From assembly GCA_000002435.2 (NCBI GenBank), contig CM018792.1: a DNA stretch of 64,000 bases; one strand, given 5' to 3'. Positions 29,801 through 39,205 of this stretch are shown here, piece after piece. A program made the translations under genes and the position numbers. This DNA comes from Giardia intestinalis (lineage: Eukaryota). Numbering within the stretch: position 1 is the stretch's first letter; every line of letters begins with the position of its first letter. The notes under the pieces were generated by a model. That model did no database searches, was not told the DNA's origin, and saw only the letters and a program-made list of their open reading frames with translations.

Positions 29801-29988
29801 TCTGCGAGTGCAACCCGGGATTCAACCTGAACGATAGAAAAGACGCGTGCGAGGCGGTTGCCAACACAAACAAGAGTAGTGGCCTTTCTACCGGCGCCAT
29901 TGCAGGCATTGCTGTGGCTGCTGTTATTGTCGTCGGGGGCCTCGTCGGCTTCCTCTGCTGGTGGTTCCTCTGCCGGGGCAAAGCGTAG
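26899..29988 (+). CDS. Variant-specific surface protein (VSP) with 13 identical 74-aa cysteine-rich tandem repeats, TM helix and the invariant CRGKA cytoplasmic tail
   Basis: Track ORF begins at GTG 26668. The real ATG is at 26899 (MLVGFLLVCATVLA signal peptide). Body is rich in CxxC/CxxxC motifs. C-terminus is ...GLVGFLCWWFLCRGKA*. VSP polyA motif follows the stop. Confidence 0.92.
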   Translation: MLVGFLLVCATVLAKYSGKTSSEAVANTNCAQELQNAGCKTCGPNDQTCLDCKTPGENVQLDKRSCGPTCPQNSSPNQNVCECNPGFNLNDRKDACEAVANTNCAQELQNAGCKTCGPNDQTCLDCKTPGENVQLDKRSCGPTCPQNSSPNQNVCECNPGFNLNDRKDACEAVANTNCAQELQNAGCKTCGPNDQTCLDCKTPGENVQLDKRSCGPTCPQNSSPNQNVCECNPGFNLNDRKDACEAVANTNCAQELQNAGCKTCGPNDQTCLDCKTPGENVQLDKRSCGPTCPQNSSPNQNVCECNPGFNLNDRKDACEAVANTNCAQELQNAGCKTCGPNDQTCLDCKTPGENVQLDKRSCGPTCPQNSSPNQNVCECNPGFNLNDRKDACEAVANTNCAQELQNAGCKTCGPNDQTCLDCKTPGENVQLDKRSCGPTCPQNSSPNQNVCECNPGFNLNDRKDACEAVANTNCAQELQNAGCKTCGPNDQTCLDCKTPGENVQLDKRSCGPTCPQNSSPNQNVCECNPGFNLNDRKDACEAVANTNCAQELQNAGCKTCGPNDQTCLDCKTPGENVQLDKRSCGPTCPQNSSPNQNVCECNPGFNLNDRKDACEAVANTNCAQELQNAGCKTCGPNDQTCLDCKTPGENVQLDKRSCGPTCPQNSSPNQNVCECNPGFNLNDRKDACEAVANTNCAQELQNAGCKTCGPNDQTCLDCKTPGENVQLDKRSCGPTCPQNSSPNQNVCECNPGFNLNDRKDACEAVANTNCAQELQNAGCKTCGPNDQTCLDCKTPGENVQLDKRSCGPTCPQNSSPNQNVCECNPGFNLNDRKDACEAVANTNCAQELQNAGCKTCGPNDQTCLDCKTPGENVQLDKRSCGPTCPQNSSPNQNVCECNPGFNLNDRKDACEAVANTNCAQELQNAGCKTCGPNDQTCLDCKTPGENVQLDKRSCGPTCPQNSSPNQNVCECNPGFNLNDRKDACEAVANTNKSSGLSTGAIAGIAVAAVIVVGGLVGFLCWWFLCRGKA
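26965..29877 (+). repeat. Tandem array of 13 complete copies of a 222-bp unit, plus a 27-bp start of a 14th, inside the VSP gene
   Basis: Period 222 bp (unit starts 26965, 27187, 27409 ... 29629). Copies appear nucleotide-identical. Each encodes EAVANTNCAQELQNAGCKTCGPNDQTCLDCKTPGENVQLDKRSCGPTCPQNSSPNQNVCECNPGFNLNDRKDAC (10 Cys). Confidence 0.95.
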
Positions 29989-37404: not shown

Positions 37405-39030
37405 ATGCTTTTCATCTTGGCGCTCCTGGGACTCTTATTATCAGATACTCCAGCATGGTGTCTTGGGGACCAAGTTCTGGGCGTATGGAGCCTGCAGTTT
37501 ACTGACTTTAAGTACTCAGGAGGGAACGGGACAGACAGATTTGAGTGCCCAGCCAATATAGCAGCTACTACTACGAAGAGGATACGACTGCTGGCTCCCA
37601 ACATTGCAATCAACGAGCAAACGGGCGCCACGGGCACTTGGACCATGGCGTACACGGAGGGCCTCGAGATACGCCTTAACGGTCTTAATTATCTGTTCTA
37701 CTTTGCATGGAAGGAGTATCCGCTGGAGGGTAGGGTGATGGTCAATTCTTCTTGCTGGCTATCAGCGCCAGGCATGGGGTGGGTCAAGAAGGACGGAATA
37801 GGGAATGCATCCCAGGCTTGTCTCTATGCGGAGCTTATTAGCGCGGACTCCAGCACGCTTTACAACATTAGGGACGAGAATGCACCGGGACCAGTGAACC
37901 CGACAGACCAGACAAGTCAGGGAGAAGCCTTATTATCGCGCCACGCGACCCTACCTTCGAGGAAGCTTCCAGTTCCACTACCTACAGGGGCTCACTATCG
38001 GAAGCTTCTCTCTGCTAACAAGCTCAGATATGCCAAGCGTGAATTTCGCAGGGAATTCTCGCACAATCTTTTCGGATTTGGGTCTGAATCTGAGACACGT
38101 AATGTACCGTATAAAGGCGATACTCTTCCGGATGACTTCGACTGGCGAGATGTCAATGGTGTCAGCTACATTCCTGGGGTCTTGGACCAAGGCGCTTGTG
38201 GCTCTTGCTTCACCTTTGGCGCAGTGCAGGCTATGAATAGTCGCATCATGATAGCCACCAATAGAACAGATCCTGTAGGTACGAAGACAATCCTGTCCAC
38301 TGAGCACGCTTTAGATTGCAATGTATACAGTCAGGGCTGCGACGGGGGCTTTCCAGAGCATGTCCTGAGGTTTGCAGAGACCAACGGGATAATGACAGAG
38401 GACGATTACTACATACCATATACTTCGGGGACGGACGGAGTAACGCGAGAGTGCAAGACATCTCCTGGCTCCAGGCGCTACTACTTCACGGCAGGCCAGC
38501 AGTTGGGTGGCTACTATGGAGCTGTCACCGATCCGGTTGAGATGCAATGGGAGCTCTACAGGCACGGTCCCTACCCTGTTAGCATATATGTCGATTCTGA
38601 TGGATACTTCTCCAGAGGGGATCTTTACGGTCCAGCGGACAATCACGAAACGGTTGATTCAGACGACCCCGAACGCCACTACTTCATCAGTGAGGTGAAC
38701 CATTGTGTTCTGCTCATAGGCTGGGGCACATTTGCAAACGGAACAAAGTACTGGATCATCCTGAATTCATGGGGTGAATCATGGAATGACCGGGGGACAA
38801 TGAAGATAGCAATGGGCACAAATGCATATGGAATAGAGTCATCGCCGACAACGCTGTACTGGATTCCTCATAATCCAGTTAGCAGCCAGCCCCAGGTGCA
38901 CATAAGATTTATTCTGCGCGCCCTTTTGTTCCTTGTCGCTGGGTTATGTGGACTTTCAGTCATCGGGCTCCTGATCGCTATTTGCGTAGTTAAGTCCCGC
39001 GGGACAAAATACCGTCCAATAATTGCATAA
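37405..39030 (+). CDS. Cathepsin C / dipeptidyl-peptidase I-like C1 cysteine protease with exclusion domain, intact catalytic triad and a C-terminal TM anchor
   Basis: Signal peptide, then DTPAWC..LGVW exclusion-domain start (cf. DTPANC..LGTW). Catalytic domain collinear with DPPI (QGACGSCFTF, QGCDGGFPE, NHCVLLIGWG, LNSWGESWNDRG). C-terminal FILRALLFLVAGLCGLSVIGLLIAICVV helix plus KSRGTKYRPIIA tail. Confidence 0.85.
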   Translation: MLFILALLGLLLSDTPAWCLGDQVLGVWSLQFTDFKYSGGNGTDRFECPANIAATTTKRIRLLAPNIAINEQTGATGTWTMAYTEGLEIRLNGLNYLFYFAWKEYPLEGRVMVNSSCWLSAPGMGWVKKDGIGNASQACLYAELISADSSTLYNIRDENAPGPVNPTDQTSQGEALLSRHATLPSRKLPVPLPTGAHYRKLLSANKLRYAKREFRREFSHNLFGFGSESETRNVPYKGDTLPDDFDWRDVNGVSYIPGVLDQGACGSCFTFGAVQAMNSRIMIATNRTDPVGTKTILSTEHALDCNVYSQGCDGGFPEHVLRFAETNGIMTEDDYYIPYTSGTDGVTRECKTSPGSRRYYFTAGQQLGGYYGAVTDPVEMQWELYRHGPYPVSIYVDSDGYFSRGDLYGPADNHETVDSDDPERHYFISEVNHCVLLIGWGTFANGTKYWIILNSWGESWNDRGTMKIAMGTNAYGIESSPTTLYWIPHNPVSSQPQVHIRFILRALLFLVAGLCGLSVIGLLIAICVVKSRGTKYRPIIA

Positions 39031-39205
39031 AATCACTTCCATCTCAACACTTGCCCTTGTCTATCGCTCTTCTGAGCATCCTAGACATCTATTTTCACCA
39101 AGCAAGATTCCCGTTCGCACGTTGTAAACACACACACACACACTTTCCCGCGAAGTTGAGCCGGTAGGTCAGAAAAGTGTAGAGCTAGATTTACTTGCAG
39201 ATGGC

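What the first reader, a model, noticed from the sequence alone, without database searches (positions are those of the whole stretch)
37405..39030. Cathepsin C (DPPI) homolog with a C-terminal transmembrane anchor; second membrane-tethered C1 peptidase within 15 kb
The exclusion domain and papain domain are collinear with human DPPI, yet the ORF continues into FILRALLFLVAGLCGLSVIGLLIAICVV-KSRGTKYRPIIA, a classic TM plus short cytosolic tail. With the cathepsin L-like gene at 24-26 kb, the window holds two differently derived C1 proteases that both acquired membrane anchors and that flank a VSP gene. This suggests surface or endolysosomal-membrane localised proteolysis in this parasite.
Basis: partly seen in the sequence, partly recalled or inferred. 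Interest (0 to 1): 0.55.

Follow-up and report, generated by a model that had tools for sequence, protein, structure and literature searches.

The report
Giardia's known membrane-anchored cathepsin C (ESCP)

Summary
The window is Giardia intestinalis WB. The ORF at 37405..39030 (+), 541 aa, encodes a signal peptide, a cathepsin C exclusion domain, a pro-region, a papain domain with intact Cys268/His433/Asn454, a short stalk, one transmembrane helix and a 12-residue tail, KSRGTKYRPIIA.

It is not new. The protein is identical to XP_001709706.1 / A8B4V5 and 539/541 identical to AAK97078.1 / Q95WU9, "encystation-specific protease" (ESCP, GL50803_14566).

What I added:
- The extension is under purifying selection (omega about 0.08 between assemblages A and B), so it is not an artefact.
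- The anchor is not a Giardia acquisition. The 20 closest relatives all have it, and the named ones are all Fornicata (G. muris, Spironucleus, Hexamita, free-living Dysnectes). 53 more distant DPPI homologues lack it.
- The second anchored C1 protease at 24–26 kb is real. It belongs to a multi-copy, GC-rich family paired with a VSP, and nothing links it functionally to ESCP.

Verdict: already known; low interest.

The parts
37405..39030 (+). Complete CDS of ESCP / dipeptidyl-peptidase I (541 aa plus TAA), Giardia intestinalis WB, GL50803_14566
   Evidence: ORF. Exact match to XP_001709706.1 / A8B4V5, and 2 substitutions relative to AAK97078.1 / Q95WU9 'encystation-specific protease'. Gene ID from PMC6115752.
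37393..37404 (+). CAGAAAAAAATC directly upstream of the ATG; likely an AT-rich initiator or promoter element (inferred)
   Evidence: Identical in assemblage B while the sequence further upstream diverges. The role is inferred from my own knowledge that Giardia promoters are short AT-rich initiators next to the ATG.
37405..37443 (+). Signal peptide, residues 1-13 (MLFILALLGLLLS); predicted cleavage exposes Asp14
   Evidence: Hydrophobic N-terminus. D14-T-P-A aligns with D1-T-P-A, the first residue of mature rat and human DPPI. Cleavage itself is inferred.
37444..37830 (+). Cathepsin C exclusion domain, residues 14-142, including the substrate-anchoring Asp14
   Evidence: PF08773, E 4e-16. Beta-rich in the model with block pLDDT mostly 72-91. 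D14 is present in at least 90% of the 14 aligned sequences.
37831..38124 (+). Pro-region or linker, residues 143-240 (probable excised activation peptide)
   Evidence: Occupies the position of the DPPI propeptide in the alignments. Has the lowest model confidence (pLDDT 26-46) and the highest omega, 0.13. Excision is inferred.
38125..38850 (+). Papain-family catalytic domain, residues 241-482. Gln262, catalytic Cys268 (nt 38206-38208), His433 (nt 38701-38703), Asn454 (nt 38764-38766)
   Evidence: PF00112, E 3e-42. Motif positions, conservation. Best structural matches are DPPI 1jqp and 3pdf.
38851..38919 (+). Juxtamembrane stalk, residues 483-505
   Evidence: Present in the 10 fornicate homologues of alignment A1 and absent from its 4 metazoan DPPI sequences, which end about 10 residues after the last conserved block.
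38920..38991 (+). Transmembrane helix, residues 506-529 (ALLFLVAGLCGLSVIGLLIAICVV)
   Evidence: Kyte-Doolittle peak 2.74. Helix 496-531 with pLDDT 80-90. Omega 0.09 for TM plus tail. A hydrophobic segment sits at the same place in the 20 closest homologues.
38992..39027 (+). Cytoplasmic tail, residues 530-541 (KSRGTKYRPIIA)
   Evidence: Basic, 12 residues. ...KYRPIIA is identical in assemblage B, and YRPIIA in two further Giardia-like sequences.
39010..39021 (+). YRPI tyrosine-based (YXX-phi) lysosomal sorting motif, residues 536-539
   Evidence: Position. [quoted passage not shown]
24092..26005 (-). Context only: cathepsin L/K-like 'Cysteine protease' XP_001709702.1 / A8B4V0, 637 aa, with its own C-terminal TM segment (residues 587-615)
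   Evidence: No evidence of a functional link to ESCP.
26668..29988 (+). Context only: VSP gene ending in CRGKA. The mechanical ORF start is given; the true ATG probably lies downstream of it.
   Evidence: Pfam VSP hit and CRGKA tail. Contains 13.1 perfect 222-bp repeats.

Best explanation
The gene is Giardia intestinalis ESCP (GL50803_14566), the parasite's catalytically intact cathepsin C / dipeptidyl-peptidase I.

Proposed mechanism:
1. It is made as a type I membrane pre-pro-enzyme. A 13-residue signal peptide takes it into the ER, and its removal exposes Asp14 at the start of the exclusion domain.
2. The exclusion domain caps the papain-type active site (Cys268/His433/Asn454), so that dipeptides are removed from substrate N-termini.
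3. A roughly 100-residue pro-region lies between the two domains and is probably excised.
4. Unlike metazoan DPPI, which is soluble, the polypeptide continues into a stalk, one TM helix (506-529) and a 12-residue cytosolic tail.
5. The tail's YRPI motif (a YXX-phi signal, six residues from the membrane and near the C-terminus) is read by the mu subunit of the AP-1 adaptor. [quoted passage not shown]
6. There it acts as a membrane-tethered lysosomal exopeptidase. It was reported to process cyst-wall protein CWP2 during encystation, a role now shared with or contested by the cathepsin B GlCP2.

Shown here: identity, domain order, catalytic residues, TM segment, motif, and purifying selection on the extension. 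Taken from the literature: localisation, YRPI and AP-1 dependence, the encystation role. Inferred: the signal-peptide cleavage site, pro-region excision, dipeptidyl specificity.
For: - Identity: exact match to XP_001709706.1 / A8B4V5, and 539/541 identical to AAK97078.1 / Q95WU9 'encystation-specific protease'.
- Architecture.
- Structure: the model has a helix at 496-531, and its best PDB matches are DPPI 1jqp (E 5e-27, target TM-score 0.84) and 3pdf.
- Selection: omega is 0.06 overall and 0.08 for residues 483-541, with dS above 1.
[quoted passage not shown] 'Membrane Cathepsin C' delivery to the PVs is AP1-dependent (PMC3423367).
- Proteomics: ESCP (Gl14566) was recovered in the peripheral-vacuole dataset at relaxed stringency (PMC3986054).
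- Conservation: YXX-phi tails occur in 12 of the 15 catalytically intact (or fragmentary) anchored homologues, or 13 counting a motif at the membrane boundary in P0128.
Against: - I could not read the primary papers (Touz 2002, 2003, 2004; DuBois 2008). They are not held, so the mechanism rests on later reviews and citing papers, largely from the same group.
- A clathrin interactome study found no AP1 subunits in clathrin co-IPs and no clathrin-coated vesicles. It states that, without canonical clathrin-mediated endocytosis, uptake mechanisms need further study (PMC4954726). The vesicular details are therefore unsettled.
- The encystation-specific role is disputed: GlCP2 is now regarded as the prominent CWP2-processing enzyme (PMC13315228).
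- The residue aligned with human DPPI Tyr323, which I recall as a chloride ligand, is Gln here and not conserved among the fornicate sequences. Enzymology may therefore differ from mammalian DPPI.
- Proteomic support in the PV fraction was a single unique peptide.
Confidence: 0.93

Rival explanations
1. The C-terminal extension is an artefact (sequencing error, frameshift or read-through), and the real protein is a soluble DPPI that ends after the papain domain.
For: Metazoan DPPI sequences end about 30 residues after the catalytic Asn.
Against: - The exact 541-aa product is recorded on 107 contigs from independent assemblies.
- The separately deposited ESCP sequence AAK97078.1 has the same C-terminus.
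- Omega is 0.08 over residues 483-541 with dS about 1.4, and the stop codon is at the same position in assemblage B.
- The 20 closest homologues carry an equivalent TM segment.
- Published tail-motif work shows the tail is functional.
Confidence: 0.01
2. The enzyme is mainly a plasma-membrane ectoprotease, displayed on the surface like the neighbouring VSP and acting on host or luminal substrates, rather than an endolysosomal enzyme.
For: Type I topology with a short basic tail resembles VSPs. YXX-phi motifs also drive endocytosis from the surface, and one paper cites ESCP as an example of receptor-mediated endocytosis (PMC4954726), which implies at least transit through the plasma membrane.
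Against: Published localisation of HA-tagged ESCP is in the peripheral vacuoles (PMC6115752, Figure 2 legend). It is listed among known PV proteins and was found in the PV proteome. The secreted and surface protease activity of Giardia is attributed to cathepsin B enzymes.
Confidence: 0.05
3. ESCP, the 24-26 kb cathepsin L-like protease and the VSP form a functionally linked or co-regulated gene cluster for membrane-bound proteolysis.
For: Both anchored C1 peptidases lie within 15 kb with a VSP between them. The order VSP ... Ank-ESCP is syntenic in assemblage B. In another G. intestinalis assembly the two proteases share one 108-kb contig (ESU36994 and ESU37003).
Against: - At least four unrelated ORFs on both strands lie between the VSP and ESCP.
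- The protease and VSP pair occupies a discrete GC-rich block (about 23.6-29.9 kb, GC about 0.6, GC3 0.89 and 0.77), whereas ESCP has ordinary composition (GC3 0.55).
- The cathepsin L-like gene is one of at least four copies of 90% identity or more in WB, on contigs of 2.76 (two copies), 1.97 and 4.02 Mb. ESCP has a single WB entry in its cluster.
- With 25-26 CP genes in a genome of about 12 Mb (size from my own knowledge), one falling within 15 kb of ESCP has roughly a 6% chance expectation (my estimate), found post hoc.
Confidence: 0.04
4. The enzyme is a general housekeeping lysosomal exopeptidase of the peripheral vacuoles, digesting endocytosed protein and activating zymogens, and has no specific role in cyst-wall formation.
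For: - Reviews now attribute CWP2 processing mainly to GlCP2.
- ESCP is localised in the PVs of growing trophozoites.
- Anchored orthologues exist across Fornicata, so the design appears to predate Giardia's particular encystation machinery.
Against: The original work named it for encystation-specific behaviour and reported CWP2 cleavage (cited in PMC1762436, and PMC13315228). Reviews still propose that vacuole acidification favours ESCP over GlCP2 late in encystation. This rival changes only the physiological role, not the molecular mechanism above.
Confidence: 0.4

Closest known systems
Giardia lamblia ESCP (encystation-specific cysteine protease; GL50803_14566; GenBank AAK97078.1, UniProt Q95WU9; genome copy XP_001709706.1 / A8B4V5)
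   Same: It is this protein. It matches the WB genome product over all 541 residues, with the same signal peptide, exclusion and papain domains, TM helix and YRPI tail.
   Different: Two residues differ from the original deposit: S403F and C434F in AAK97078.1, the second next to the catalytic His433. These may be strain differences or sequencing differences.
Mammalian cathepsin C / dipeptidyl peptidase I (PDB 1jqp rat, 3pdf and 1k3b human)
   Same: - Collinear exclusion domain, pro-region and papain domain.
- An N-terminal Asp directly after the signal peptide.
- Gln, Cys, His and Asn catalytic residues.
- Best sequence and fold match.
   Different: - About 30% identity.
- The mammalian enzyme is soluble and, from my own knowledge, reaches lysosomes by mannose-6-phosphate receptors. 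The Giardia enzyme carries its own stalk, TM helix and YXX-phi tail.
- The position aligned with human Tyr323, which I recall as a chloride ligand, is Gln.
- There are extra insertions in the papain domain, for example residues 398-430, which are modelled with low confidence.
- Tetramer formation is untested.
Type I lysosomal membrane proteins sorted by a C-terminal YXX-phi signal (LAMP-1 type); in Giardia, the GlVps receptor with YQII
   Same: A single-pass type I protein with a short basic tail. The tyrosine motif lies six residues from the membrane and close to the C-terminus. Recognition by the AP-1 medium subunit is reported for ESCP and for GlVps.
   Different: Here the cargo enzyme is itself the membrane protein, so no separate receptor is needed. 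GlVps is a receptor for a soluble hydrolase, acid phosphatase.
Fornicate DPPI homologues (G. muris TNJ29350.1, Spironucleus salmonicida V6LWF9, Hexamita inflata A0AA86NFS9 and others, Dysnectes brevis EP00768_P001355)
   Same: The same architecture, including a C-terminal TM segment and a short tail. Most have a YXX-phi motif: YRPI, YKKI, YEQV, YVKI, YQPL, YNSI.
   Different: 40-48% identity. Tails vary, and two unnamed relatives (P0005, P0006) have acidic tails with no tyrosine motif. Several paralogues are catalytically dead, with Cys replaced by Ser.

Membership tests
Cathepsin C / dipeptidyl-peptidase I (papain family C1 with exclusion domain) | Exclusion domain N-terminal to a papain-family catalytic domain, on one polypeptide | tested here: met
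   PF08773 at 14-142 (E 4e-16) and PF00112 at 241-482 (E 3e-42). A single collinear alignment to rat DPPI. Foldseek top hits are 1jqp and 3pdf.
Cathepsin C / dipeptidyl-peptidase I (papain family C1 with exclusion domain) | Asp as the first residue of the mature exclusion domain, directly after the signal peptide (it anchors the substrate's free amino group) | tested here: met
   D14 in ...LLS|DTPAWC aligns with D1 of DTPANC in rat and human DPPI and is present in at least 90% of aligned sequences. The actual cleavage site cannot be tested here. The role of Asp1 is from my own knowledge of the DPPI structures.
Cathepsin C / dipeptidyl-peptidase I (papain family C1 with exclusion domain) | Intact papain-type catalytic residues (oxyanion Gln, Cys, His, Asn) | tested here: met
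   Q262, C268 (in CGSC 265-268), H433 (NHC) and N454 (NSWG).
Cathepsin C / dipeptidyl-peptidase I (papain family C1 with exclusion domain) | Dipeptidyl-aminopeptidase activity, with oligomeric (tetrameric) assembly | not testable with these tools
   This needs enzyme assays and biophysics. None of the papers I could read gave kinetic data.
Giardia ESCP (GL50803_14566) | Sequence identity with the deposited ESCP and the WB genome product | tested here: met
   Exact match to XP_001709706.1 / A8B4V5, and 539/541 identical to AAK97078.1 / Q95WU9. The link from gene ID to name is from PMC6115752.
Giardia ESCP (GL50803_14566) | Type I membrane topology: cleavable signal peptide plus a single C-terminal TM helix | tested here: met
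   There are only two hydrophobic segments, at the N-terminus and at about 497-533. The model has a helix at 496-531. This is a sequence-level prediction; membrane integration itself is taken from the literature.
Giardia ESCP (GL50803_14566) | YRPI motif in the cytoplasmic tail | tested here: met
   Y536-R-P-I539, nt 39010-39021.
Giardia ESCP (GL50803_14566) | Localisation to peripheral vacuoles, dependent on YRPI and AP-1 | not testable with these tools
   Literature only: PMC6115752, PMC3423367, PMC3986054.
YXX-phi lysosomal sorting signal | Tyr-X-X-bulky hydrophobic residue in a short cytosolic tail, a few residues from the membrane and near the C-terminus | tested here: met
   YRPI begins six residues after the last TM residue (V529) and ends two residues before the C-terminus. 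The spacing rule is from my own knowledge of the lysosomal YXX-phi literature.

The most novel reading that the evidence does not exclude
Self-anchoring of cathepsin C (TM helix plus an adaptor-binding tyrosine tail) is ancestral to all Fornicata, including free-living Dysnectes. It would then represent a receptor-independent route for delivering a lysosomal hydrolase. The catalytically dead but still anchored paralogues, with Cys replaced by Ser, occur in G. intestinalis, G. muris and unnamed relatives, and none of them has a canonical YXX-phi motif. They might act as non-catalytic partners, for example as regulatory subunits of mixed DPPI oligomers or as sorting or retention factors. The first half is essentially observed here, but I found no paper stating it. 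The second half is speculation.
Probability: 0.12. Interest if true: 0.4.

Novelty: already known. Interest (0 to 1): 0.1.

Why it matters
For the finding as submitted, it matters little. The protein, its membrane anchor, its tail motif and its destination were published two decades ago and appear in current reviews.

ESCP remains a useful textbook case. In a eukaryote with a minimal endomembrane system, a lysosomal hydrolase carries its own sorting signal instead of relying on a receptor.

The small added value here is comparative:
- The anchored design appears common to Fornicata rather than Giardia-specific.
- It coexists with anchored, catalytically dead paralogues.
- The position I recall as a chloride ligand in mammalian DPPI is not conserved.

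These points could guide follow-up work on how lysosomal sorting evolved in metamonads and on the disputed division of labour between ESCP and GlCP2 in cyst-wall maturation.

Tried and rejected
- Primary papers: I tried to read Touz 2003 (JBC), Touz 2002 (JBC), Touz 2004 (MBC, PMC452563) and DuBois 2008 (PMC2440617). None is held, so mechanistic statements are cited from reviews and citing papers.
- Genomic context of the cathepsin L-like paralogues: I looked up A8B556 and A8BIQ4 (P0112, P0117) to see whether they also sit beside VSPs. No gene record was found, so that question stays open.
- Artefact hypothesis for the C-terminal extension: considered and rejected.
- Gene-cluster or operon-like reading of ESCP with the second protease and the VSP: considered and rejected.
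- Literature on anchored cathepsin C in other diplomonads: a search returned one paper, which has nothing on the subject.
- Motif parser: the parser failed on P0137, P0168 and P0173. I judged these by eye: P0137 is anchored, and the other two end without a hydrophobic segment.
- Structure model: confidence is only moderate (mean pLDDT 64). I used it only for fold assignment and the TM helix, not for active-site geometry.
Full report
**1. What is in the sequence**

Pfam places a cathepsin C exclusion domain at residues 14-142 (E 4e-16) and a papain-family domain at 241-482 (E 3e-42). Among solved structures the best matches are rat and human dipeptidyl peptidase I. Rat DPPI aligns in a single collinear stretch, query 14-483 to chain 1-431 (E 7e-45).

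A hydropathy scan finds only two segments with a 19-residue mean above 1.6. One is the N-terminal signal peptide. The other spans about 497-533, peaks at 2.74 over residues 511-529, and is followed by KSRGTKYRPIIA.

The catalytic residues are all present: Gln262, Cys268 (in CGSC), His433 and Asn454. Asp14, in DTPAWC, aligns with the first residue of mature mammalian DPPI. An AlphaFold2 model is of moderate quality (mean pLDDT 64, pTM 0.66). It shows a beta-rich exclusion domain, a papain fold and one long helix at 496-531. Its best PDB matches are DPPI 1jqp (E 5e-27, target TM-score 0.84) and 3pdf.

**2. Where the window comes from and what the gene is**

The neighbouring ORF at 26668..29988 (+) hits the Pfam VSP family and ends in CRGKA, the signature tail of Giardia variant-specific surface proteins (the signature is described in PMC1762436).

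The 541-aa protein matches XP_001709706.1 / A8B4V5 from first to last residue. That entry is 'Dipeptidyl-peptidase I' of Giardia intestinalis ATCC 50803 (WB clone C6), recorded on 107 contigs including a 2.76-Mb one. It differs at two positions, S403F and C434F, from AAK97078.1 / Q95WU9, 'encystation-specific protease'.

[quoted passage not shown] Another paper from that group refers to AP1-dependent delivery of 'membrane Cathepsin C' to the peripheral vacuoles (PMC3423367). An independent organelle-proteomics study lists ESCP among known peripheral-vacuole proteins and recovered Gl14566 in the vacuole dataset at one-peptide stringency (PMC3986054).

The YRPI motif sits at residues 536-539 (nt 39010-39021) of the window protein. 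The anchor, the tail and their function are therefore already published.

**3. Is the extension real?**

I compared assemblage A (the window) with the assemblage B orthologue (L001, GCA_000498735.1, 84% identical protein) using Nei-Gojobori counts:

| Region | omega |
|---|---|
| Whole gene | 0.06 |
| Exclusion domain (with signal peptide, 1-142) | 0.04 |
| Pro-region (143-240) | 0.13 |
| Papain domain (241-482) | 0.04 |
| Residues 483-541 | 0.08 |
| TM plus tail (502-541) | 0.09 |

Synonymous divergence is above 1 in every region. The stop codon is at the same position in both assemblages, and similarity disappears directly after it. The 12 bases before the ATG, CAGAAAAAAATC, are identical in both. 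The extension is protein-coding sequence under constraint, not an artefact.

**4. How widespread is the anchor?**

I searched 1.84 billion representative proteins and scanned the best hits for a hydrophobic segment after the catalytic Asn.

- The 19 closest sequences all have one, with Kyte-Doolittle peaks of 2.3-3.5, and 78-119 residues follow the catalytic Asn motif. P0137 also has one by eye, which makes 20.
- The next 53 DPPI-like representatives that I could parse peak at 1.2 or less. Most end 28-35 residues after the Asn.

Names recovered for the anchored set (Hexamita also):
- G. intestinalis assemblages A and B
- G. muris (TNJ29350.1 with YRPI; TNJ29347.1)
- Spironucleus salmonicida (V6LWF9, YKKI)
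- Hexamita inflata (several; YEQV, YVKI, YQPL)
- the free-living fornicate Dysnectes brevis (YNSI)

Twelve of the 15 catalytically intact or fragmentary anchored sequences have a clear YXX-phi motif in the tail. A thirteenth, P0128, has one at the membrane boundary. The anchor is therefore ancestral to this group rather than something this parasite acquired.

Five anchored sequences have lost the catalytic Cys (CNSS or CNTS): P0008, P0121 from G. muris, P0125, P0129 from G. intestinalis assemblage B, and P0137. None of the five has a canonical YXX-phi motif, and two carry FRPI in its place. This fits the count of four cathepsin C-like genes in WB given by one paper (PMC5955458). Another paper counts only one (PMC10454693).

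**5. The second protease and the VSP**

The ORF at 24092..26005 (-), 637 aa, is XP_001709702.1 / A8B4V0, 'Cysteine protease'.

- It has CGSC189-192, NHQV475, NSWG496 and a C-terminal hydrophobic segment at 587-615.
- Its nearest solved relatives are cathepsins K, S and L. The papain domain is split by an insert of roughly 240 residues.
- Close relatives occur only in Giardia, and all those inspected keep the same C-terminal segment. Distant Hexamita 'Cathepsin_L' proteins also end in a TM segment and a short tail.

The implied link between them is not supported:

- The gene is one of at least four copies of 90% identity or more in WB, on contigs of 2.76 Mb (two copies), 1.97 Mb and 4.02 Mb.
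- It sits with the VSP in a discrete GC-rich block, about 23.6-29.9 kb, with GC about 0.6 even between the genes. GC3 is 0.89 for the protease and 0.77 for the VSP, against 0.44-0.55 for surrounding genes, ESCP included.
- At least four unrelated ORFs on both strands, one of them an ankyrin-repeat protein, separate the VSP from ESCP.

The gene order VSP ... 1215-aa protein ... Ank-ESCP is syntenic in assemblage B. That shows ordinary conservation of gene order, not a functional cluster.

**6. Mechanism**

Shown here: a type I layout with a signal peptide, a lumenal exclusion and papain module with intact catalytic residues, a single TM helix, and a 12-residue basic tail. In that tail YRPI begins six residues after the membrane and ends two residues before the C-terminus.

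Inferred: cleavage of the signal peptide before Asp14, excision of the 143-240 pro-region (lowest model confidence and highest omega), and dipeptidyl-aminopeptidase specificity.

Caveats:
- A clathrin interactome study found no AP1 subunits in clathrin co-IPs and no coated vesicles in Giardia (PMC4954726), so the carrier is unclear.
- The CWP2-processing role that gave ESCP its name is now mostly attributed to the cathepsin B GlCP2. ESCP is possibly favoured after acidification (PMC13315228).
- The residue aligned with human DPPI Tyr323, which I recall as a chloride ligand, is Gln here and variable among the fornicate sequences. Halide activation may therefore differ.

**7. Comparison with known systems, and verdict**

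The gene is ESCP itself. It is a bona fide member of the cathepsin C family: every sequence-level defining feature I could test was met, while enzymatic activity and oligomeric state could not be tested. It differs from metazoan DPPI in being self-anchored, with a LAMP-like YXX-phi tail. In function it resembles a lysosomal membrane protein in which cargo and receptor are fused.

The finding is a correct rediscovery of a protein characterised in 2002-2004. Novelty: already known. Interest: low. The only modest additions are the fornicate-wide conservation of the anchor, the dead anchored paralogues, and the evidence that proximity to the second protease and the VSP is incidental.

Noticed in passing
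window 23600-29900: A discrete GC-rich block (GC about 0.58-0.71, including the intergenic stretch at 26000-26600) sits within sequence of about 0.43-0.49 GC. It holds the 637-aa cysteine protease (GC3 0.89) and the VSP (GC3 0.77). The protease has at least four copies of 90% identity or more in WB, so this may be a duplicating protease-VSP unit.
   Followed up: partly
window 26963-29871: The VSP contains 13.1 tandem copies of a 222-bp (74-aa) unit at 100% identity with no indels. This suggests very recent expansion or ongoing homogenisation. It also produces long spurious antisense ORFs.
   Followed up: partly
window 24092-26005 (-): In the cathepsin L/K-like protease the papain domain is split by an insert of roughly 240 residues between the Cys and His halves. 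Its C-terminal TM segment and tail (…WNYVLVGALAIVIFFLGRYCMQYYFCAPEYIFHSP…) are nearly invariant across the Giardia copies inspected. Distant Hexamita 'Cathepsin_L' relatives also end in a TM segment, preceded by cysteine-rich repeats.
   Followed up: partly
P0008, P0121 (G. muris TNJ29347.1), P0125, P0129 (G. intestinalis assemblage B ESU44839.1), P0137: These are membrane-anchored cathepsin C-like paralogues that have lost the catalytic Cys (CNSS or CNTS). Three of the five lack the N-terminal Asp motif in my parse (P0129 keeps DTAV; P0137 was not parsed). None has a canonical YXX-phi tail, and two have FRPIVA. They look like pseudoproteases of unknown role. In G. muris the dead and active genes have accessions three apart (TNJ29347 and TNJ29350).
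   Followed up: partly
window 38611-38613 and 38704-38706 (codons 403 and 434): The genome copy differs from the original ESCP deposit AAK97078.1 at S403F and C434F. The second position is next to the catalytic His433. These may be strain variation or errors in the early sequence.
   Followed up: no
alignment A1, window residue about 366 (…TAGQQLGG…): The position aligned with human DPPI Tyr323 (…EYHYVGG…), which I recall as a chloride-binding residue, is Gln in Giardia and Q, L, P or A in the other fornicate sequences. This hints at different halide dependence.
   Followed up: no
L001 1-2700 (assemblage B, GCA_000498735.1) compared with window 26668-29988: At the syntenic position upstream of ESCP, assemblage B carries two shorter VSP genes (one of at least 486 aa, one of 399 aa) in place of the single repeat-expanded VSP of WB. 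The VSP slot is conserved while its content turns over.
   Followed up: no
window 39132-39145: There is a short (CA)n run about 100 bp downstream of the ESCP stop codon. No AGTRAAY polyadenylation-like motif was found within window positions 39001-39200, which run from the last codons of ESCP to about 170 bp past its stop.
   Followed up: no
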